Sequence record: PV636258.1
Length of the DNA: 64,000 nt
Source: a phage
Strand: one strand, 5' to 3'
In this document: piece by piece, positions 41,914 through 50,087 of the stretch
Layout: each line of letters starts with the position of its first letter
How positions within the stretch are numbered: the first letter of the stretch is position 1
Translations under genes and position numbers: made by a program
The notes under the pieces: model-generated
The model's database searches: none
Told to the model about the DNA's origin: nothing
The model's input: the letters and a program-made list of their open reading frames with translations, nothing else

Positions 41914-42252
41914 CTAACTCCTTTCCTTGACAGAAGTGAAAGATTCTTTCCATCCTTTAAATTGTTCGGTCAGGGATTCTTTCCCCATTTCCCCATTGGA
42001 AACGCTATGGATATATGCAAATGCATCGTAACCATAACCAGGCATTGCTTCACAAATACGAAGAGAGACCAATGTTTCGCCAACAGAAACCAGATAATGA
42101 TCACGGCGATGGCTCAAAGGATAGTGATTGTCATGGAATTTGTCGATAACAACGCAGTTCTGGGGTTCGGCGTCAATTGCCAGCCCGTTGGCTTCGCTAC
42201 CGCCGCGCCCAAGGGTGCATCCTGGGAATAATGTTTCTACGAGTGTGGTCAT
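41914..42252 (-). CDS. hypothetical protein
   Basis: 112-aa ORF. Confidence 0.4.
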   Translation of the reverse strand: MTTLVETLFPGCTLGRGGSEANGLAIDAEPQNCVVIDKFHDNHYPLSHRRDHYLVSVGETLVSLRICEAMPGYGYDAFAYIHSVSNGEMGKESLTEQFKGWKESFTSVKERS

Positions 42253-42253
42253 A

Positions 42254-42463
42254 TTACTTCCTCATCATATTCAATAAATTAATTTTACCCTTTGCTTCTG
42301 GGGCATACCAAACGTTCTGAGAGTGCCTCTTACAGCACGGACAATCCTTGGTGGCAATTACACAGGGAGCCTTGTCCACGGCATATCCAGCGTCTTCGGC
42401 TTCCTTGACGGTGTTAAATGGCAAGTATGCACTTGTGCCTTGCCCTCCGCATGAACATTCCAT
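42254..42463 (-). CDS. small Cys-rich protein (zinc-ribbon-like)
   Basis: CSCGG ... CPCCKRH cysteine pairs. Confidence 0.4.
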   Translation of the reverse strand: MECSCGGQGTSAYLPFNTVKEAEDAGYAVDKAPCVIATKDCPCCKRHSQNVWYAPEAKGKINLLNMMRK

Positions 42464-42575
42464 CAGCGTTTCCTCTTAAAGGGGATGATCAGGGCTATGA
42501 TTAACAGCATAGCTGTGATCACTCCGCATGCGATAAGACCGAATGCAAATGATTTCAAAACAAATTGAAAAATAA

Positions 42576-43769
42576 TCATAATTTCCTCAGTTTTGCCCTT
42601 GTGATCTGAGTTTGTTTAACACCTTTGAATTCGGTCAATTCTTTGACGCGACCACGAATGATCATATCACCTTCCAGGAATTCAGTTTCCATATAAGAAG
42701 TCTTCCATGTAATGGTATTGCCTTCCTTGGTTTTGAAAGTATACAGATACGTGTCACCATAATCAGACGAATACAGGAAAATCCTTGCTTCAAATTTGAC
42801 CTGTGCTTCTAACATTTCACCAACTTCACCAACCCAATTTGATACAGTGCGCGTTTGGCGGGGGGTGTGGATATAATCATAATACTTTGCTGCTCCCCAA
42901 CGAACTGTCGTGGAGTCCTTAACGAGGTGATATCCAGGTTCGCACATACGTTTCAACCGGACGTTGAAATCGTTATTTTCAGACAACGATGCGATGAAAA
43001 GCATCATATGATACATCTCTGATTGGGCATCTTCGCGAGCTTTGATAGCCTTATTGTAAAACATTTCTACGTCGGAACCTTTCTCCGGACGAGTGCCGCT
43101 AGAGATATGACCAAGAACCCGACCAAAATCATCACTTTTAATGCTCAGGCCGGACAGCAAAACCTGAAAGCAATTCCGCAAATAACCTTCAGTGTCAACG
43201 TAATCAGGTTCGTTCACTCGATAGATGCCTTCAGGTTCATCTTCATCAGGTGAGAACATTTCATGTATCGACATATAATAAGACATCACGGCATCAAGCG
43301 ATTTCTGATGCGGAACATAATGATGCATGCAGCTGCTACCCACGAGCATCTGTGCGCCAGATTGTTCGTTACGAACGACATATGTGTTATGACGACGCAC
43401 AGATTTGTTGCAATGCTCGCACCAAGATACGTTTTCAGCTTCAAATCTTTGAACGAAATTTGGGTGGATGTCATCTGACAGTTTATTCAGAATGACTTTT
43501 GGATACTGGTGGTTGAATTGTCCAATGATACTCCACCCACCATAAGAAACGGGGCGGTCGATGCCTTCACCAGTTAGAGTACAATCTTGCCACCAACGAT
43601 AAAATTTTTCGCCAGTGATAGAATCGCGGTGTTGTGTTTTGTATGGTTCACTGAACTCAACAAGAGGGAACTCGAGATTCAGGCGCTTGGCCGTTCTTTC
43701 AAGTTTGGCCAGACGTTCCTTGACACGACCAATGTTATCAATTGGGATGCTGAAGGTCTTGGCTTTCAT
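42576..43769 (-). CDS. hypothetical protein (397 aa) with Cys/His cluster
   Basis: WCEHCNKS ... SSCMHHY cluster; sits where T4-like genomes often carry the primase, but no TOPRIM motifs recognised. Confidence 0.45.
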   Translation of the reverse strand: MKAKTFSIPIDNIGRVKERLAKLERTAKRLNLEFPLVEFSEPYKTQHRDSITGEKFYRWWQDCTLTGEGIDRPVSYGGWSIIGQFNHQYPKVILNKLSDDIHPNFVQRFEAENVSWCEHCNKSVRRHNTYVVRNEQSGAQMLVGSSCMHHYVPHQKSLDAVMSYYMSIHEMFSPDEDEPEGIYRVNEPDYVDTEGYLRNCFQVLLSGLSIKSDDFGRVLGHISSGTRPEKGSDVEMFYNKAIKAREDAQSEMYHMMLFIASLSENNDFNVRLKRMCEPGYHLVKDSTTVRWGAAKYYDYIHTPRQTRTVSNWVGEVGEMLEAQVKFEARIFLYSSDYGDTYLYTFKTKEGNTITWKTSYMETEFLEGDMIIRGRVKELTEFKGVKQTQITRAKLRKL

Positions 43770-43854
43770 TTTTGCCTCTCATGATGTAGTGAAACTTTTC
43801 AATGTAGGTTAAATGATAGCCGCAAGTTTTATTGAAGTAAAGTTTTATTGAATT

Positions 43855-43879
43855 AAAGCCCAACAAATGTTGGGCTTTT
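43855..43879. terminator. palindromic hairpin terminator (usable on either strand)
   Basis: AAAGCCCAACAAATGTTGGGCTTTT; on minus strand followed by two TTCAATAAAAC repeats. Confidence 0.5.
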
Positions 43880-44597: not shown

Positions 44598-46028
44598 TTA
44601 ACCGAAATTCCAATTGTTCACGGTCTCGGCTTTCTTGACATCATTTACGTCGCCTGTTTTGTTTAAGTCATGTTTGATATGAACATTCTCAACATAACGG
44701 GCTTCCTCTTCTGTCAGGTCTCGCTTGACTTCATTCCAATCCAAGTCAAACAATATCTGTTTATCTTGATCCATACCGAACAAGAACGATTTGAGTTTCT
44801 GTTTATTGGCATAACGGTTTTTCAAGATAGACGCTCGGGCTTTCTTAACAGCCGCCAGTTCATCAGGGGCATAGAACGCCATGATGAAGTCTGCAACCTT
44901 CGGAATACCGATAGCATCTGCCAGGTCGCTAATATCACCATCAGTCGCCGATTGTTTTTCACGGTTAAATTGCATACCTGTCCATACAGGGCAATCAAAT
45001 TCAAATCCAAGCGCACGGAATTCACGCGCCACCGACGTATAATACACGTTGGTGTTCTGCATTAAATGGGCAGGAAGGCGAGAAGACGCTGATTCACCCA
45101 AGTAGTCTATAATAATGACGTCCGGCGTAATTCCCGTGGATGTCGCATAATCAAGGATATCGCGGCGATATAGTCCTGTATGCCCAGCGCCTGAAGGATA
45201 TTCCTTGATAACAATATCACCCTTCATGGAACCGTCTTGACGAGTTCGCAACTTTTGTATCGTGGCGACATATTCATGTCGTGAGAGCTTCTCTAAGGAC
45301 TCGAAGTCCCTGCGCATCATACGGGCATCAAGGCGGTGACGCCAGACGTTCTCAGCCACTTCTAGGGTGAATACGAATACGTTCAACCCTTGCTCGGAGT
45401 AACCAGCAGCCAAATCAATCAGAGTTGTTGTCTTACCCGCATTAATTGCACCCGTCACGATGTTCAGCGTTTTCTTACCAACACCACCACGAGTCGCTTT
45501 GTTGAATATCTCTACAGCGAAAGGAATCTTCGCTTCATTAGAGTTCATGTGGTCGTATTGTTGTTCAGCCATTTCCCAATAGATATGGCCAAGATAAGAA
45601 TCAAAACTTATCGCCAACGCCTCTTGTAGGAGAGTTGGAATCGTGTTCATCTCATCTTTACGTTTCTCATCACCATAGATGTTGACGGCGTGTTTGATCG
45701 CATTATGAACAGCTTTCTGCCGCGCCCAACTTTCTGTTTCTTTTACAAGCCATTCCTGATGGAATGTGTTGTCATTGATATTCTCAAGAGCAGAAATAGC
45801 TTGTTCAAATACGTGTTCGTTGAGCGAAGTCTTTTCCAGCATAATAGACAACGCTTCAACCGAAGGACGAGCATTATATTCGCAAGTGTAATGGTCAATG
45901 AGACCGAATATAATTTTCTCGCCTTCGTTATCGAAATAATCGGCTTTCAAATACGGCTGGATCTTTCTTTGATATTCTTCGTTATAGATTAATTGGGAAA
46001 GCACGACAGATTCGAGTAACATTGGCAA
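44598..46028 (-). CDS. 41: replicative DNA helicase, DnaB family (gp41-like)
   Basis: 476 aa; Walker A GAINAGKTT, DnaB-like C-terminal RecA-fold domain. Confidence 0.9.
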   Translation of the reverse strand: MPMLLESVVLSQLIYNEEYQRKIQPYLKADYFDNEGEKIIFGLIDHYTCEYNARPSVEALSIMLEKTSLNEHVFEQAISALENINDNTFHQEWLVKETESWARQKAVHNAIKHAVNIYGDEKRKDEMNTIPTLLQEALAISFDSYLGHIYWEMAEQQYDHMNSNEAKIPFAVEIFNKATRGGVGKKTLNIVTGAINAGKTTTLIDLAAGYSEQGLNVFVFTLEVAENVWRHRLDARMMRRDFESLEKLSRHEYVATIQKLRTRQDGSMKGDIVIKEYPSGAGHTGLYRRDILDYATSTGITPDVIIIDYLGESASSRLPAHLMQNTNVYYTSVAREFRALGFEFDCPVWTGMQFNREKQSATDGDISDLADAIGIPKVADFIMAFYAPDELAAVKKARASILKNRYANKQKLKSFLFGMDQDKQILFDLDWNEVKRDLTEEEARYVENVHIKHDLNKTGDVNDVKKAETVNNWNFG

Positions 46029-46358
46029 CTACCCCACCAAAATTTTGTTGTAATCCTGAGCATTTTGCTGTATCAGATCAACTAAGATATCCCCAGACAC
46101 CACAGTGAACAAGTCATTTTCTTTCAAATTAACAAATAACAAACGCCATGGTTTCTTCAATATATCTGTTGTAAAGGATAACCGAGGCTCTCCATTATCT
46201 AAATGGACACCCACTTTCCCTATACGAAATTGAACGCCACGGAATTTGCCTTCCGTTATTTCGATTATTGCTAACTGATCAGAACCAGGGTCGATGATTT
46301 TGTAATTAACGGGGGAGTCTCCTCCCCCTGCAATATTACTCGGTTGTTTTGATGACAT
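46029..46358 (-). CDS. hypothetical protein between uvsX and helicase genes
   Basis: 109-aa ORF tightly coupled to both neighbours. Confidence 0.45.
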   Translation of the reverse strand: MSSKQPSNIAGGGDSPVNYKIIDPGSDQLAIIEITEGKFRGVQFRIGKVGVHLDNGEPRLSFTTDILKKPWRLLFVNLKENDLFTVVSGDILVDLIQQNAQDYNKILVG

Positions 46359-47421
46359 TATCGAGGCGCTCCAGCATATCTGCAGGCATAACCGAACTCT
46401 GAGAGATACCGAACATGTTGTTCACATCGTCAACAAAGTCTGGGTTTTCCAGCAGCGGATACCAGAAGTCATCCCCCAGCTCTGCCTTACGATATTTCTT
46501 TTCTTTTTCTGGATCAAACCCGCCTTTGGCAGTGCGTTGATACCAAGAACCACTCACCAAATCCACATACCCCAGCATGCGCGCAATTTCTAACATACCG
46601 GACCAACGGTCAATACCGCCTTCATACAACACAGTGACAGGGAACTTGGCTTTTTCACGGACAAAGCGGCCTTTCATAATGTTGACTGTAAACTGCCATC
46701 CCAAAAGGTCTTTGTCTTCTTTAACTTGAGAACGCGTGATGAACCACAATTGGTTAGAAGACAGGAACCCCTGTTTACCGCCTTTGATGTTCGGCTCGGC
46801 GTATTGGTTCCCGATTTCATCATAGTACGAGTTGATCCATACCAAAACGAATTTCTTTTCAGTGACCAACGGGGTGATAACACGCCAAAAACTATTGAGA
46901 GCGCGAGCGCGGGTCATATCTTGTGTGTCTTTGCCCGCGATGGCATCATCAACTTCTTTGGTAGACGGCAACTGGCTGATTGAGTCAATGAATACGATGA
47001 TCTTGTCACCTTTCTGTGCATCGTTCAGAAGCTGTGTCAGCTTGATCTTCGTCTTTTCAACGTTTTCAATCGGCAGATACAAGACACGGTCCATGTCAAT
47101 ACCCATAGATGTCCAGTAGTTTTCATTCGCACCGCCTTCTGAATCCGCGAAGATACAAATTGCATCAGGAAACTTATCCATGTAAGCCTTAACATCCACC
47201 AGCCCAAACATGGTTTTGAATGTACGAGAATCCCCTACCAACTGTTTGATGCCTGATATCAGACCACCATCAATACGACCGGACCAGGCCAAATTCAGAA
47301 TAGGAATACCCGTACTGCAAATAATGTCAGGCTTCAGCGCATCGGTCTTTGACAGCACTTCGGCATTCGGGTCCAGTTTCTTTGCTGTCTTGAGCATGCG
47401 AGCCATCAATGAATCGGCCAT
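46336..47421 (-). CDS. uvsX: UvsX recombinase (RecA/Rad51 family)
   Basis: 361 aa; N-terminal similarity to T4 UvsX architecture, Walker A GDSRTFKT, KVDDAIAGKDTQDMTRA region. Confidence 0.9.
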   Translation of the reverse strand: MADSLMARMLKTAKKLDPNAEVLSKTDALKPDIICSTGIPILNLAWSGRIDGGLISGIKQLVGDSRTFKTMFGLVDVKAYMDKFPDAICIFADSEGGANENYWTSMGIDMDRVLYLPIENVEKTKIKLTQLLNDAQKGDKIIVFIDSISQLPSTKEVDDAIAGKDTQDMTRARALNSFWRVITPLVTEKKFVLVWINSYYDEIGNQYAEPNIKGGKQGFLSSNQLWFITRSQVKEDKDLLGWQFTVNIMKGRFVREKAKFPVTVLYEGGIDRWSGMLEIARMLGYVDLVSGSWYQRTAKGGFDPEKEKKYRKAELGDDFWYPLLENPDFVDDVNNMFGISQSSVMPADMLERLDNVIKTTE

Positions 47422-47936
47422 TTCGTTTCCTCTTGCTTGTTGATCGTAATTAATAAATCGGTGCCCAAGACTTTCTTGGACAATATATTGATTGCTTCGT
47501 GAATCGCCATTATTGACGGGAGTTTTTCATCGTTAATTTCGGAACCCCCGCGTTCTGTTAAATACATATTACGCAGACGATTGTGCTGTGCCCTGTTGAC
47601 ACAAGAAACATTCAATGCGATATTCAGGATATACATCATTTGTTCAGTTGTAACATCCTTTGGAATAGCATGAACATAATATATCGCATCTTCAAAATAG
47701 ATATGCTGTAATGACTCAGGAATTTCTTCTCCACCGAAAGCAAAATCTTCAATACGTTTGAAAAGGGTTTCCGGCTCTGGTGTTGTAATATGTTGCGTTA
47801 CAGTAGCCGCACCATCTGGTTCTTTGTTGAATTTGGTCGCGATAACGACATGACCGCCTGGTTTAATAAACTCAGCGAAGTTCTCTGCCATGTGCGGGGC
47901 ATATTCCGCATAATATGATACGACAACTGTAAACAT
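47406..47936 (-). CDS. hypothetical protein
   Basis: 176-aa ORF coupled within nucleotide-metabolism operon. Confidence 0.45.
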   Translation of the reverse strand: MFTVVVSYYAEYAPHMAENFAEFIKPGGHVVIATKFNKEPDGAATVTQHITTPEPETLFKRIEDFAFGGEEIPESLQHIYFEDAIYYVHAIPKDVTTEQMMYILNIALNVSCVNRAQHNRLRNMYLTERGGSEINDEKLPSIMAIHEAINILSKKVLGTDLLITINKQEETKWPIH

Positions 47937-48481
47937 TAGAACTCCAGAGTCAGAGGGGTTTCGGCAGACTTGTCATAGTTCGCACCGCCAGCAGCACGTA
48001 GACGATTGCGATCGTTTTTGCGCTTGTGTGCCAGCATGTAGGTCTCAGCATCCAGCCCCAAATATCCGCAAGCCGCTGCCAAGAAGGTAGCCAAAACATT
48101 CCGAAGAGGGTGTGACATGAAATACGTGAACAGTTCAGTCACTTTCCTGAGGTCGTTAGGGGTTTGAATTGGCTGCGCCTGAACGAATCTCACCATTTCT
48201 GGAATATCGTGTGGTTTGTCTTCCTCCTGCAGGACAGCACAGAGCATGAAGTGAACAACGTCCACCAACTCGTATATGGCATCCACTTGTCGCCAATGCT
48301 TACCACCCCCATAGATCTTCCAGTCTATGGTTGTTTCGTCTAGAAACTCTGCCCACTCACGATAGATGGAGTTTGCTATCGCCACTTCGGTCCAGCGCTT
48401 CTTCCACTCTTCCCCAAAATAGGCCACGTTGGTGGCCTTTTGAAGTTCGAGCAGACTTTTAATATGCTCTGCTGTGATCAT
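47936..48481 (-). CDS. 56: MazG-like dNTP pyrophosphatase (gp56 dCTPase/dUTPase-like)
   Basis: EWAEFLDET and ELVDVVHFML acidic helix motifs as in T4 gp56-type all-alpha NTP-PPases. Confidence 0.55.
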   Translation of the reverse strand: MITAEHIKSLLELQKATNVAYFGEEWKKRWTEVAIANSIYREWAEFLDETTIDWKIYGGGKHWRQVDAIYELVDVVHFMLCAVLQEEDKPHDIPEMVRFVQAQPIQTPNDLRKVTELFTYFMSHPLRNVLATFLAAACGYLGLDAETYMLAHKRKNDRNRLRAAGGANYDKSAETPLTLEF

Positions 48482-49047
48482 TTCCGATCCCTATAAAATT
48501 TGACGAACGGTTGCCAACCTTCAAACGGATTGACAAATTCATAATCAACTTCCATCTTATCAATGAAAGCCTCAATGTCATCCTCTATGATACCACCGCG
48601 ATCCGCCTTTGAAATGCGGGTGATGGGACATTTAGTGCTCAGCGCCCATTCATATTCCTGAGGGGTGCGCAAATCACTCACGATATAATGAACGTGTGGG
48701 TTCTGTTCCACCAAAGGAAGTTGATATCGTTTAAAGAATGACAGAAACAGGTCTGGTTGTACGTAACGCAAGCCCGTATCGCTGCCGAGATGAAGCCAGA
48801 TCTGCCGTGGAGTTAATCCCTTGGGGTTATCAGGGTGAACATATGGCAAGTCCTTGATGTCGTCCTCTACTTCCTCTGGCAACCAAGGATAGATGTAATG
48901 AGCCACCCGACGCAACTCGTCTGAGAAAGATAAGCGCTGGATGTCCATATCACCCTGTAAATGGTGAAAGCTGATGAGGGACTCCAAACAGAAGTCCTTG
49001 CCGGAGCGCTTGCGCCCCGTAAAGAATTCCAGATTAGGGTATTTCAT
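48478..49047 (-). CDS. 1: deoxynucleoside monophosphate kinase (gp1-like)
   Basis: P-loop FFTGRKRSGKDF resembles T4 gp1 FLSGVKRSGKDT; ATG at 49047 overlaps upstream stop (ATGA). Confidence 0.7.
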   Translation of the reverse strand: MKYPNLEFFTGRKRSGKDFCLESLISFHHLQGDMDIQRLSFSDELRRVAHYIYPWLPEEVEDDIKDLPYVHPDNPKGLTPRQIWLHLGSDTGLRYVQPDLFLSFFKRYQLPLVEQNPHVHYIVSDLRTPQEYEWALSTKCPITRISKADRGGIIEDDIEAFIDKMEVDYEFVNPFEGWQPFVKFYRDRK

Positions 49048-50087
49048 TCCCCATACCCCCACATGTGTTTACGGTCAACGGGTGATTGTAACAACGCATT
49101 ACGAAGACCATCATCAGCAATCCGACGTTTATCAATTTTAGTATCATTAAGGCGACACCACAGACAATATGACATATCCATCATCAAACCTGTATCTGCG
49201 TTATATTCCTTCAAATGCTCTCTGATTTTACCAAATTCACTGCCAATGTCACAGTGATGAAGTACACCGAGGAACAGATTTTGGATGTTTTCTTGACATT
49301 TCACCTTTTCCGAAGAGAATTCCAACAAAGAATTGTACATACCAGTAGAAGTTCGGGTCTTGTTGGTTATGTTCCCGAGTTGCTTCCGACTGACTTCGTT
49401 GTTGTAATAGTGAAGGTTATTCGAGAACAGTTTATAATTCCCGACTTCCACGTTCAACACCTTCGCCAATACTTCCTGCAAAATGGAGAATTCAATGAAG
49501 TTGATTGAACTCATACCCCAGAGGACATCCTGACTTCGATTGATGACCGTGATGTTCAACCGCCCTTCTGTTATACTGAACAATAAAGCCAGATTACAGA
49601 TCATGTCTTTAGTCTTGGCTTCTCCTGTTTCACTATGCGCGGCCAAACTTTCATCTGAGTCCAGAGCTGGATCATAGATGGTGAGATACGCCTGACGGGT
49701 GTTGGGGTTATTGCGCAAACGGTTGATGACACTATTCAGCTGGCCATAGTTGTACAGGCGTGGTCCGTAAGCACCACGCCACGTTACGCCATCATCCGAG
49801 AAGTTGACCGCACGAGGGAGGACTCGGGAAAGGAAACGGATGTCATTGCGGCCTGACAGAACCCAGAATGTTTCACCAATCGCAGCAAGCGCAGATGAAT
49901 TACGACCTTCAACAGATAACCAACGATCTCGAGGGTCAGCCACCGTAATCGTCACGCCATCAATAAAACGAGTGCCGTCAGTGTTAATCTCTGCGTTGCC
50001 AGGATCTGACTCAATCCCGTGTTCACGGATAGCCAACACAGCTTTCTTCAGCATATCATTATTGTTTAAAGCAAAAATCTCCATCAA
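49044..50087 (-). CDS. thymidylate synthase-family enzyme, divergent (candidate deoxypyrimidylate hydroxymethylase)
   Basis: TS-fold motif series: GAYGPRLYNYGQ, NNPNTRQAYLTIYDP, Cys in DMICNLALLF, NRSQDV, SSINF (Asn at uracil-specifying position), SNNLHYY; 347 aa with C-terminal extension. Confidence 0.8.
   Translation of the reverse strand: MMEIFALNNNDMLKKAVLAIREHGIESDPGNAEINTDGTRFIDGVTITVADPRDRWLSVEGRNSSALAAIGETFWVLSGRNDIRFLSRVLPRAVNFSDDGVTWRGAYGPRLYNYGQLNSVINRLRNNPNTRQAYLTIYDPALDSDESLAAHSETGEAKTKDMICNLALLFSITEGRLNITVINRSQDVLWGMSSINFIEFSILQEVLAKVLNVEVGNYKLFSNNLHYYNNEVSRKQLGNITNKTRTSTGMYNSLLEFSSEKVKCQENIQNLFLGVLHHCDIGSEFGKIREHLKEYNADTGLMMDMSYCLWCRLNDTKIDKRRIADDGLRNALLQSPVDRKHMWGYGE

What the first reader, a model, noticed from the sequence alone, without database searches (positions are those of the whole stretch)
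42576..43769. Orphan 397-aa Cys/His-cluster protein in the expected primase position
In T4-type gene order the primase follows the gp41 helicase; here a 397-aa protein with a WCEHC...SSCMHH cluster occupies that area (two small ORFs intervene) but shows no TOPRIM motifs I can recognise. It may be a highly divergent primase or an unrelated zinc-binding factor.
Basis: inference. Interest (0 to 1): 0.4.

Follow-up and report, generated by a model that had tools for sequence, protein, structure and literature searches.

The report
Zinc/OB-fold phage protein, not a primase
The 397-residue Cys/His-cluster protein next to the phage's replicative helicase is not a hidden primase (the real T4-type primase lies elsewhere in this Salmonella phage genome); it belongs to a very large, unnamed phage protein family built from a zinc ribbon and a DNA-binding OB fold, and most likely acts as a non-enzymatic DNA-binding helper.

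Summary
The ORF is real: 42576..43769, minus strand, 397 aa, with WCEHC and SSCMHH. It lies two small ORFs downstream of a T4 gp41-type helicase. The window is Salmonella phage Chennai (Kuttervirus, Ackermannviridae).

The primase reading is refuted.
- A canonical gp61 primase (chennai_132) lies about 6.7 kb beyond the window end. It matches T4 gp61 over its full length (E 5e-44).
- The 397-aa protein has no TOPRIM or AEP signature by sequence profile, by residue conservation or by predicted fold.

It is not an orphan. It matches phrog_2319 (unknown function) over its full length. A profile search finds 8,462 clusters (50% identity), nearly all of the 150 listed being 370-440 aa. No Pfam, NCBIfam, PADLOC or PDB sequence match exists.

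The gene has its own conserved sigma-70-like promoter. Relatives often sit near SNF2-helicase replication modules.

Best reading: an early, non-catalytic ssDNA- or branched-DNA-binding accessory factor. The function is inferred, not shown.

The parts
42576..43769 (-). CDS of the 397-aa protein (chennai_091; phrog_2319), stop codon included
   Evidence: ORF list; 100% identical annotated CDS in MN953776.1; full-length phrog_2319 match, E 3.4e-171
43434..43769 (-). N-terminal alpha/beta domain, residues 1-112 (strand, long helix, then a multi-stranded sheet and a second helix). No match found in solved structures.
43305..43433 (-). Zinc-ribbon segment, residues 113-155. Ligand candidates are C117, H119, C120 and C147 (H149 is subfamily-specific). 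R126 is conserved.
   Evidence: C117, C120, G144 and C147 are invariant; H119 is in 69/70 and R126 in 68/70 of the members of A2. There is a weak, non-significant resemblance to the ribosomal L36 zinc ribbon (E 0.96).
42855..43304 (-). All-helical middle domain, residues 156-305, preceded by a lower-confidence acidic linker at about residues 172-189
   Evidence: AF2 secondary structure and pLDDT. The domain pI is 5.2. G207 is conserved, and T215 (F in this phage) is conserved in the family.
42579..42854 (-). C-terminal OB fold, residues 306-397. Five strands with a short helix between strands 3 and 4. W355, K376, Q386, T387 and R391 are conserved.
43813..43841 (-). Sigma-70-like promoter candidate, TTTACT-17 nt-TATCAT, directly upstream of the gene
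   Evidence: Consensus scan. Both hexamer regions are conserved in Dickeya, Klebsiella and Serratia Ackermannviridae.
43855..43878 (-). 10-bp hairpin (AAAGCCCAAC-ATTT-GTTGGGCTTT) just after the stop of the upstream 100-aa ORF. It is terminator-like and separates the gene from the helicase transcription unit.
   Evidence: Read directly from the sequence. The stem is conserved, with variable loops and T-rich tails, in three other genera. The terminator scan did not list it.
41914..42579 (-). Three small co-directional ORFs downstream (38-aa hydrophobic peptide, 69-aa Cys-rich protein, 112-aa protein). Start and stop codons overlap with the gene and between the first two ORFs (ATGA, TGATG), so they are probably co-transcribed and translationally coupled.
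   Evidence: Annotation chennai_090, 089 and 088; overlaps read from the sequence; phrog_4789 and phrog_5022, both of unknown function.

Best explanation
The gene encodes a member of a very large, uncharacterised phage protein family (phrog_2319). It is not a primase and probably not an enzyme.

The protein has four modules: an N-terminal alpha/beta domain, a zinc ribbon held by C117, H119, C120 and C147, a helical domain, and a C-terminal OB fold of the SSB/RPA/RecG-wedge type.

The most likely mechanism has three steps.
- The gene is transcribed early from its own sigma-70-like promoter.
- The protein binds single-stranded or branched DNA on a surface formed by the OB fold (W355, K376, Q386, T387, R391) and the basic zinc ribbon (R126).
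- The N-terminal and helical domains hold it onto other phage DNA-metabolism proteins.

It would therefore act as an accessory factor in replication, recombination or repair, not as a catalyst.

Shown: the gene, the family, the invariant Cys/His set, the predicted fold, the absence of primase features, and a real gp61 primase elsewhere. Inferred: zinc binding, DNA binding, early expression and the accessory role.
For: Genome and primase.
- The window is Kuttervirus phage Chennai.
- The real primase is chennai_132. It matches T4 gp61 (8dvf_H) at E 5.1e-44 over its full length and phrog_47 at E 1.7e-78.

Family.
- phrog_2319 is matched over the full length at E 3.4e-171.
- An HMM profile search finds 8,462 clusters at E<=1e-3 and 4,349 at E<=1e-10; nearly all of the 150 listed span the full length at 370-440 aa.
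- All 70 diverse members fall in phrog_2319.

Conservation.
- Invariant: C117, C120, G144, C147, R391.
- Nearly invariant: H119, R126, W355, K376, Q386, T387.
- No acidic residue is invariant or nearly invariant; the best are D150 (79%, H in this phage) and E380 (77%).

Structure.
- The AF2 model has pLDDT 92 and pTM 0.75.
- Structural relatives in BFVD include two actinophage proteins named 'ssDNA binding protein'.

Context.
- In Ackermannviridae the gene lies between uvsX/gp41 and DNA ligase/gp59.
- Among 31 groups (70% identity) of IMG/VR relatives, the commonest neighbour within 8 genes is an SNF2 helicase (9 groups). AAA_24/PD-(D/E)XK, DUF669 and thymidylate synthase genes are also nearby.
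- The promoter and the upstream hairpin are conserved across genera.
Against: - No experiment or named homologue supports DNA binding. OB folds also bind proteins, oligosaccharides and RNA.
- The association with replication genes is loose. In KVP40-like and phiAS5-like phages, and in several large gut phages, the gene sits among small unannotated ORFs. In some temperate phages it sits at the prophage end next to a serine recombinase.
- The phage already has gp32, gp59 and UvsX, so no obvious functional gap needs filling.
- The Kuttervirus protein differs from the family consensus at several otherwise conserved positions: R124V, D150H, T215F, H378L.
- The N-terminal and helical domains (two thirds of the protein) have no structural match. 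I could not search them separately, and afdb50 was unavailable.
Confidence: 0.5

Rival explanations
1. It is a highly divergent DNA primase (TOPRIM/DnaG-gp61 type or AEP type) that works with the adjacent gp41 helicase.
For: It lies near gp41, as gp61 does in T4. It has a Cys/His cluster that could be taken for a primase zinc-binding domain. One BFVD structural relative (295 aa, 122 aligned columns) carries a 'DNA primase/helicase/DNA Complex ...' description of unknown provenance.
Against: - A full-length gp61 orthologue exists elsewhere in the genome.
- There is no Toprim or primase Pfam hit.
- The family profile finds no primase among all PDB sequences, even at E<=10.
- No acidic residue is invariant or nearly invariant for a TOPRIM E/DxD motif or an AEP DxD/H/D motif.
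- The gene is not linked to the helicase in other phages.
Confidence: 0.02
2. It is an early counter-defence or host-takeover protein. It would bind a host nucleic acid or a host defence or repair protein (or act as a decoy) and would not serve the phage replisome.
For: - Its phylogenetic spread is very wide and patchy: Ackermannviridae, KVP40-like and phiAS5-like Straboviridae, and contigs assigned to Clostridia, Bacilli, Actinomycetota, Bacteroidota, Myxococcota, Planctomycetota and a Cupriavidus plasmid. This suggests horizontal mobility.
- It is often embedded in runs of small unannotated ORFs, once near a Lar restriction-alleviation gene.
- In temperate gut phages it is the first large gene after the repressor/cro-like switch, or it sits at the prophage end. 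Both are typical accessory-gene positions.
- It has its own sigma-70-like promoter.
Against: - It was found in every Ackermannviridae genus examined, down to 22% identity. That looks more like a core function.
- It has no match to PADLOC models.
- No known anti-defence protein shares this architecture.
- Its invariant residues look like a nucleic-acid-binding OB/zinc surface, not a mimic.
- The overall pI is neutral (6.9), so it is not an acidic DNA mimic.
Confidence: 0.25
3. It is a sequence-specific DNA-binding regulator (transcription or replication-origin factor) that uses the zinc ribbon to read DNA.
For: - It has a zinc ribbon with a conserved arginine.
- In temperate phages it lies immediately downstream of the lysis-lysogeny switch.
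- In Kuttervirus it lies directly downstream of a phrog_639 'transcriptional regulator'.
- An exact 13-bp direct repeat lies in its own promoter region.
Against: - At 390 aa with an SSB/RPA-like OB fold, it is atypical for a phage transcription factor.
- No HTH or other dsDNA-reading motif was found.
- The 13-bp repeat is not conserved as a repeat in other genera.
Confidence: 0.1
4. It is an enzyme of an unrecognised type (for example a zinc-dependent nuclease or a DNA-modification accessory enzyme).
For: - Several polar positions are fairly conserved in the main family: H87 77%, D150 79%, H378 86%, E380 77%.
- Some relatives sit beside thymidylate-synthase-containing nucleotide-metabolism clusters.
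- The Kuttervirus gene is about 5 kb from a thymidylate-synthase-like gene.
Against: - None of these polar positions is invariant. The Kuttervirus protein itself lacks D150 and H378.
- No catalytic-domain match appears in Pfam, NCBIfam or the PDB.
Confidence: 0.08

Closest known systems
OB-fold single-stranded-DNA-binding domains (RPA DNA-binding domains, bacterial SSB/PriB, hSSB1, plasmid PrgE, RecG wedge domain)
   Different: No sequence similarity is detectable. The OB fold is only a quarter of the protein. There is no acidic C-terminal tail as in bacterial SSB, and the oligomeric state is unknown.
Zinc-containing OB-fold DNA-binding proteins: T4 gp32 (His/Cys3 zinc site), RPA70 DBD-C, and the MCM N-terminal domain (helical + zinc + OB), from my own knowledge of these families
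   Different: In gp32, RPA70-C and MCM the zinc module is inserted in, or packed directly on, the OB fold. Here the zinc ribbon (residues 113-155) is separated from the OB fold (306-397) by a 150-residue helical domain. The phage also has its own gp32 homologue. No sequence relationship was found.
T4 gp61 / DnaG-type primase
   Same: Only superficial features are shared: similar length (397 vs 342 aa), a Cys/His cluster, and a position near gp41 in this genome.
   Different: There is no TOPRIM fold, no conserved acidic motif and no sequence match. The true gp61 orthologue is chennai_132, elsewhere in the genome.
phrog_2319 and the shorter phrog_30451, 3628, 27218 and 4095 (all 'unknown function')
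   Same: It is a full-length member of phrog_2319. The C-terminal region (residues 293-395) also matches the four shorter PHROGs. BFVD relatives of 185-290 aa give partial structural alignments.
   Different: None of these families has a described function, so membership gives no mechanism.

Membership tests
DnaG/gp61-type (TOPRIM) primase | RNA-polymerase domain with a TOPRIM fold and conserved acidic metal ligands (E ... DxD) | tested here: not met
   No Toprim or primase Pfam hit. No acidic residue is invariant or nearly invariant in 70 diverse members. The model shows helical and OB domains after the zinc ribbon, and none of the listed top PDB fold hits is a primase.
DnaG/gp61-type (TOPRIM) primase | N-terminal zinc-ribbon DNA-recognition domain (CHC2 or C4) at the very N-terminus | tested here: not met
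   The Cys/His cluster is at residues 117-149, after a 112-residue alpha/beta domain. Its pattern is C-x-H-C...C.
DnaG/gp61-type (TOPRIM) primase | Detectable sequence homology to gp61 or DnaG | tested here: not met
   The single sequence and the 70-sequence profile find no primase in the PDB, which includes T4 gp61 8dvf_H, at E<=10. In contrast, chennai_132 hits gp61 at E 5e-44.
Archaeo-eukaryotic primase (AEP/PrimPol) | Catalytic motifs I (DxD), II (sxH) and III (hD) in an alpha/beta + RRM-like core | tested here: not met
   The acidic positions that pass 60% conservation (E139, D150, E380) all lie outside the N-terminal alpha/beta domain; H87 is only 77% conserved. There is no AEP Pfam hit and no AEP among the listed fold hits.
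OB-fold nucleic-acid-binding proteins (SSB/RPA-like) | Five-stranded closed beta-barrel with a helix between strands 3 and 4 | tested here: met
OB-fold nucleic-acid-binding proteins (SSB/RPA-like) | Binding of single-stranded nucleic acid | not testable with these tools
   Only indirect evidence: conserved W355, Y337, F345, K376 and R391 on the barrel.
Structural zinc ribbon | Four conserved Cys/His ligands on two knuckles | tested here: met
   C117, C120 and C147 are invariant and H119 is in 69/70 members. The Ackermannviridae subfamily additionally keeps H149. Actual metal binding is not testable here.
phrog_2319 | Full-length match to the family HMM | tested here: met
   E 3.4e-171, residues 1-396 against profile positions 1-398 of 399. 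All 70 diverse relatives also match.
Known anti-phage defence system proteins (PADLOC) | Match to any of the 5,027 PADLOC models | tested here: not met
   No hit for the protein or for three of four diverse relatives. One relative had a chance-level Csx1 hit, E 0.016.

The most novel reading that the evidence does not exclude
phrog_2319 is a major phage-encoded nucleic-acid-binding factor that has never been recognised. Its architecture (alpha/beta domain, C-x-H-C...C zinc ribbon, helical domain, OB fold) matched no solved structure over its full length and has no Pfam model. Its function would be distinct from canonical SSB. It could be a new class of recombination or replication-restart mediator, or an early counter-defence protein that sequesters ssDNA or branched DNA intermediates. 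It is shared by Ackermannviridae, some Straboviridae and thousands of gut and environmental phages.
Probability: 0.3. Interest if true: 0.6.

Novelty: new variant of a known kind. Interest (0 to 1): 0.3.

Why it matters
For annotation, the result removes a tempting error. The protein should not be called a primase, and the neighbouring 'DNA primase/helicase' label covers only a gp41-type helicase. The Kuttervirus primase is the separate gp61 orthologue.

More broadly, the protein is a handle on one of the larger unannotated phage families: 8,462 clusters at 50% identity with no Pfam, NCBIfam or PDB sequence match. A confident model and a short list of invariant residues (C117, H119, C120, C147, R126, W355, K376, Q386, T387, R391) make the family directly testable.

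If it proves to be a new DNA-metabolism or counter-defence factor, the result would annotate thousands of phage genes at once. As it stands, this is an ordinary 'conserved hypothetical' with a plausible DNA-binding role.

Tried and rejected
- Primase hypothesis: rejected (see above).
- Pfam, NCBIfam and PADLOC scans of the protein, and of 70 (Pfam, NCBIfam) or 4 (PADLOC) diverse relatives: nothing significant.
- PDB sequence searches with the single sequence and with the profile: only a chance-level resemblance of the CEHC...RRR knuckle to ribosomal protein L36 (E 0.96). I do not interpret it as homology.
- afdb50 fold search: not available on the machine.
- BFVD: all relatives uncharacterised.
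- The search for related loci with the 70-sequence alignment failed for lack of a conserved stretch. A 15-sequence sub-alignment worked.
- Neighbourhood analysis gave only a loose association: SNF2 helicase in 9 of 31 groups.
- My by-eye labels 'VRR-NUC' (120-aa neighbour), 'HAD phosphatase' (142 aa) and 'thymine pyrophosphorylase-like' (331 aa) were not confirmed by Pfam at E<=1e-3 and are dropped.
- Literature searches for the PHROG id, accession numbers and Kuttervirus transcriptomics found nothing on this protein.
- The 13-bp motif TTCAATAAAACTT is not a recurrent promoter element in the window: 6 matches at <=2 mismatches against 3.5 expected.

Full report
**Observation.**
The window is 100% identical over the tested 4.1 kb to Salmonella phage Chennai (MN953776.1; Kuttervirus, Ackermannviridae). 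Window position equals record position minus 23,316. The ORF at 42576..43769(-) encodes 397 aa and is annotated chennai_091, 'hypothetical protein'. It contains W116-C-E-H-C120 and S145-S-C-M-H-H150.

Upstream on the same strand lie:
- a UvsX recombinase (46336..47421);
- a 109-aa ORF;
- a gp41-type helicase at 44598..46028 (DnaB_C E 3.7e-14; T4 gp41 structure 8dtp E 4.2e-76);
- two small ORFs of 110 aa (phrog_3733) and 100 aa (phrog_639, 'transcriptional regulator').

Downstream lie three small ORFs, an ATP-dependent DNA ligase and a gp59 helicase loader. The physical observation is therefore correct.

**Is it the primase? No.**
The Chennai record annotates a separate 'DNA primase', chennai_132, at record 93999-95063. 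That is about 6.7 kb beyond the right end of the window. Pfam misses it at E<=0.01. It matches phrog_47 'DNA primase' at E 1.7e-78. It also matches the T4 gp61 chain of the solved T4 primosome (8dvf_H) at E 5.1e-44 over residues 13-354 of 354. The phage therefore has a canonical gp61.

The 397-aa protein gives no hit in Pfam, NCBIfam or PDB sequences. A profile built from 70 diverse relatives finds no primase among all PDB chains, even at E<=10.

**What family is it?**
- It matches phrog_2319 ('unknown function') end to end, E 3.4e-171.
- tblastn finds it in 410 phage records. These include every Ackermannviridae genus examined (Kuttervirus, Limestonevirus, Taipeivirus, Campanilevirus and Vibrio members, down to 22% identity). 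They also include KVP40-like and phiAS5-like Straboviridae. All are annotated hypothetical.
- A profile of close homologues, searched against 1.84 billion representative proteins, gives 8,462 clusters at E<=1e-3 and 4,349 at E<=1e-10. Nearly all of the 150 listed span the full length at 370-440 aa.
- Relatives occur on contigs assigned to Clostridia, Bacilli, Prevotella, Microbacterium, Myxococcota, Planctomycetota and Dependentiae, and on a Cupriavidus plasmid.
- None of 70 diverse members hits any Pfam or NCBIfam model, and none of the four tested hits a PADLOC model significantly. All 70 fall into phrog_2319.
- No paper in the searchable library mentions the protein.

**Conservation.**
In the 70-sequence alignment (mean identity 24%) the invariant residues are C117, C120, G144, C147 and R391. 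Nearly invariant are H119 (69/70), R126, W355, K376, Q386, T387, G207, G314 and G338. The consensus around the cluster is C-[ED]-H-C-x3-R-x-R-K-x-T-Y...G-E-x-K-Q-V-G-x2-C-L-K-D-F.

The family-wide metal site is therefore C117, H119, C120 and C147. Conversely, some Ackermannviridae members replace H119 by D or E while keeping H149.

No acidic residue is invariant or nearly invariant. The best are D150 (79%, H in this phage) and E380 (77%). This argues against TOPRIM, AEP, polymerase or nuclease chemistry.

**Structure.**
With the 16-sequence alignment AlphaFold2 gave pLDDT 82 and pTM 0.39. With the 70-sequence alignment it gave pLDDT 92 and pTM 0.75. The model has four parts:
- residues 1-112: an alpha/beta domain (strand, long helix, sheet, helix);
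- residues 113-155: short hairpins carrying the Cys/His ligands, i.e. a zinc ribbon;
- residues 156-305: helices, after a less confident acidic linker;
- residues 306-397: a five-stranded barrel with a short helix between strands 3 and 4.

In BFVD the full-length structural relatives are all uncharacterised phage proteins. Shorter relatives of 185-290 aa give partial structural alignments, and two actinophage ones are named 'ssDNA binding protein'.

**Transcription unit.**
A 10-bp GC-rich hairpin (43855-43878) follows the stop codon of the upstream 100-aa ORF. A sigma-70-like TTTACT-17-TATCAT promoter candidate (43813-43841) and a GAGAGG ribosome-binding site precede the ATG. The hairpin stem and both promoter hexamer regions are conserved in Dickeya, Klebsiella and Serratia Ackermannviridae whose proteins are only about 70% identical.

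The stop codon overlaps the start of a 38-aa hydrophobic ORF (ATGA). The stop of that ORF overlaps the next start (TGATG). The gene thus heads its own small operon and is not simply read through from the helicase.

**Genomic context elsewhere.**
- Vibrio Ackermannviridae-like phages: the homologue lies near the gp2 end protector, ligase and gp59, but not near a helicase.
- ValKK3 and phiAS5: it sits among small hypothetical genes near head genes.
- 80 IMG/VR loci were retrieved, 69 of which had the gene called; these form 31 groups at 70% identity. The commonest neighbour within eight genes is an SNF2-family helicase (9 groups; Pfam SNF2-rel_dom E 7.7e-14). AAA_24 ATPases (some fused to a PD-(D/E)XK nuclease), DUF669 and thymidylate synthase genes are also nearby.
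- Temperate gut phages: the usual order is integrase(-), repressor-like HTH(-), small ORF(+), this gene(+), small ORFs, HTH, ..., SNF2 helicase.
- Other gut phages: it lies just before a serine recombinase at the prophage end, or among dozens of tiny ORFs.

The link to DNA-metabolism modules is real but loose. The positions are also compatible with an early accessory or counter-defence gene.

**Interpretation.**
- Shown: this is not a primase.
- Shown: it is a member of a huge uncharacterised phage family, with an invariant Cys3/His set and a confidently predicted C-terminal OB fold.
- Inferred: it binds zinc structurally.
- Inferred: it binds single-stranded or branched DNA through the OB fold and the basic zinc ribbon.
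- Inferred: it is made early.
- Inferred: it serves as a non-catalytic accessory factor in phage DNA replication, recombination or repair.

I put about 0.5 on this reading, about 0.25 on an early counter-defence or host-takeover role, about 0.1 on a sequence-specific regulator, under 0.1 on an unrecognised enzyme, and about 0.02 on a primase.

**Comparison with known systems.**
The protein works most like zinc-bearing OB-fold DNA-binding proteins: T4 gp32, RPA70 DBD-C and the MCM N-terminal domain (this comparison rests on my knowledge of those families). It is not a member of any of them. There is no sequence relationship, the domain order differs, and two thirds of the protein has no structural counterpart in the PDB searches that could be run.

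**Verdict.**
Its primase interpretation is refuted, and its fallback ('unrelated zinc-binding factor') is supported. Interest is modest: a well-conserved 'dark' phage family with a clear, testable DNA-binding hypothesis, but nothing that overturns current understanding.

Noticed in passing
window 43824-43836 and 43840-43852 (- strand): Two exact copies of the 13-mer TTCAATAAAACTT lie 16 bp apart (start to start). The downstream copy overlaps the -35 region of the promoter candidate in front of the gene and the upstream copy abuts it. The motif is not enriched elsewhere in the window: 6 hits at <=2 mismatches against 3.5 expected. The upstream copy is only partly conserved in other genera.
   Followed up: partly
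window 44598-46028 (- strand); Chennai chennai_094: The gp41 homologue is labelled 'DNA primase/helicase' in many phage records. It matches only the helicase: T4 gp41 8dtp at E 4e-76, and phrog_19 profile positions 159-604 of 621. The label is misleading and may have fed the expectation of a nearby primase. The mechanical ORF starts at a TTG (476 aa), two codons upstream of the annotated start (474 aa).
   Followed up: partly
L003:5000-6064 (- strand); Chennai record 93999-95063, outside the window: The true gp61-type primase of this phage gets no Pfam hit at E<=0.01, although it matches T4 gp61 (PDB 8dvf_H) at E 5e-44 and phrog_47. This is a blind spot of Pfam for T4-type primases.
   Followed up: yes
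window 42463-42579, 42254-42463, 41914-42252 (- strand): A chain of three small ORFs lies downstream of the gene. The first start overlaps the gene's stop codon and the second start overlaps the first ORF's stop. They are a 38-aa very hydrophobic peptide, a 69-aa protein with six cysteines (phrog_4789) and a 112-aa protein (phrog_5022). All are of unknown function, and a short ORF immediately downstream (start overlapping the gene's stop) plus a 60-70-aa ORF after it are annotated in Dickeya and Klebsiella relatives.
   Followed up: partly
P0025 (486 aa): One distant family member carries a tandem duplication of the C-terminal OB module (two matched stretches; the second copy ends ...KAHSEYKDTKQTFIKE). 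The OB unit can therefore be duplicated independently of the rest.
   Followed up: no
L006:2383-3600 and L006:17399-20086: A 140-kb gut-metagenome phage contig that carries a family member also encodes a reverse transcriptase (RVT_1) and a DNA methylase interrupted by an intein (Hint_2, Intein_splicing and a faint LAGLIDADG_3 hit).
   Followed up: no
IMG/VR loci L010-L047 (e.g. L013:~2600-2900, L026:4204-4476): In temperate gut phages a small, very acidic, helical 75-90-aa ORF (cluster 7 in my analysis) lies on the same strand within three genes of the family member, in 16 loci (4 groups); it is immediately adjacent (+1 or -1) in 13 of them. It could be a partner protein. It has no counterpart in the Kuttervirus locus.
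   Followed up: no
window 47936-50087 (- strand): A cluster of nucleotide-metabolism genes lies about 4-6 kb upstream: a dUTPase-like gene, a 194-aa P-loop-like ORF and a 347-aa thymidylate-synthase-like gene. Kutterviruses are known, from my own knowledge, to hypermodify thymidine. Several distant family members also lie beside thymidylate-synthase genes (L048, L056, L060, L072-L074). No functional link was established.
   Followed up: partly
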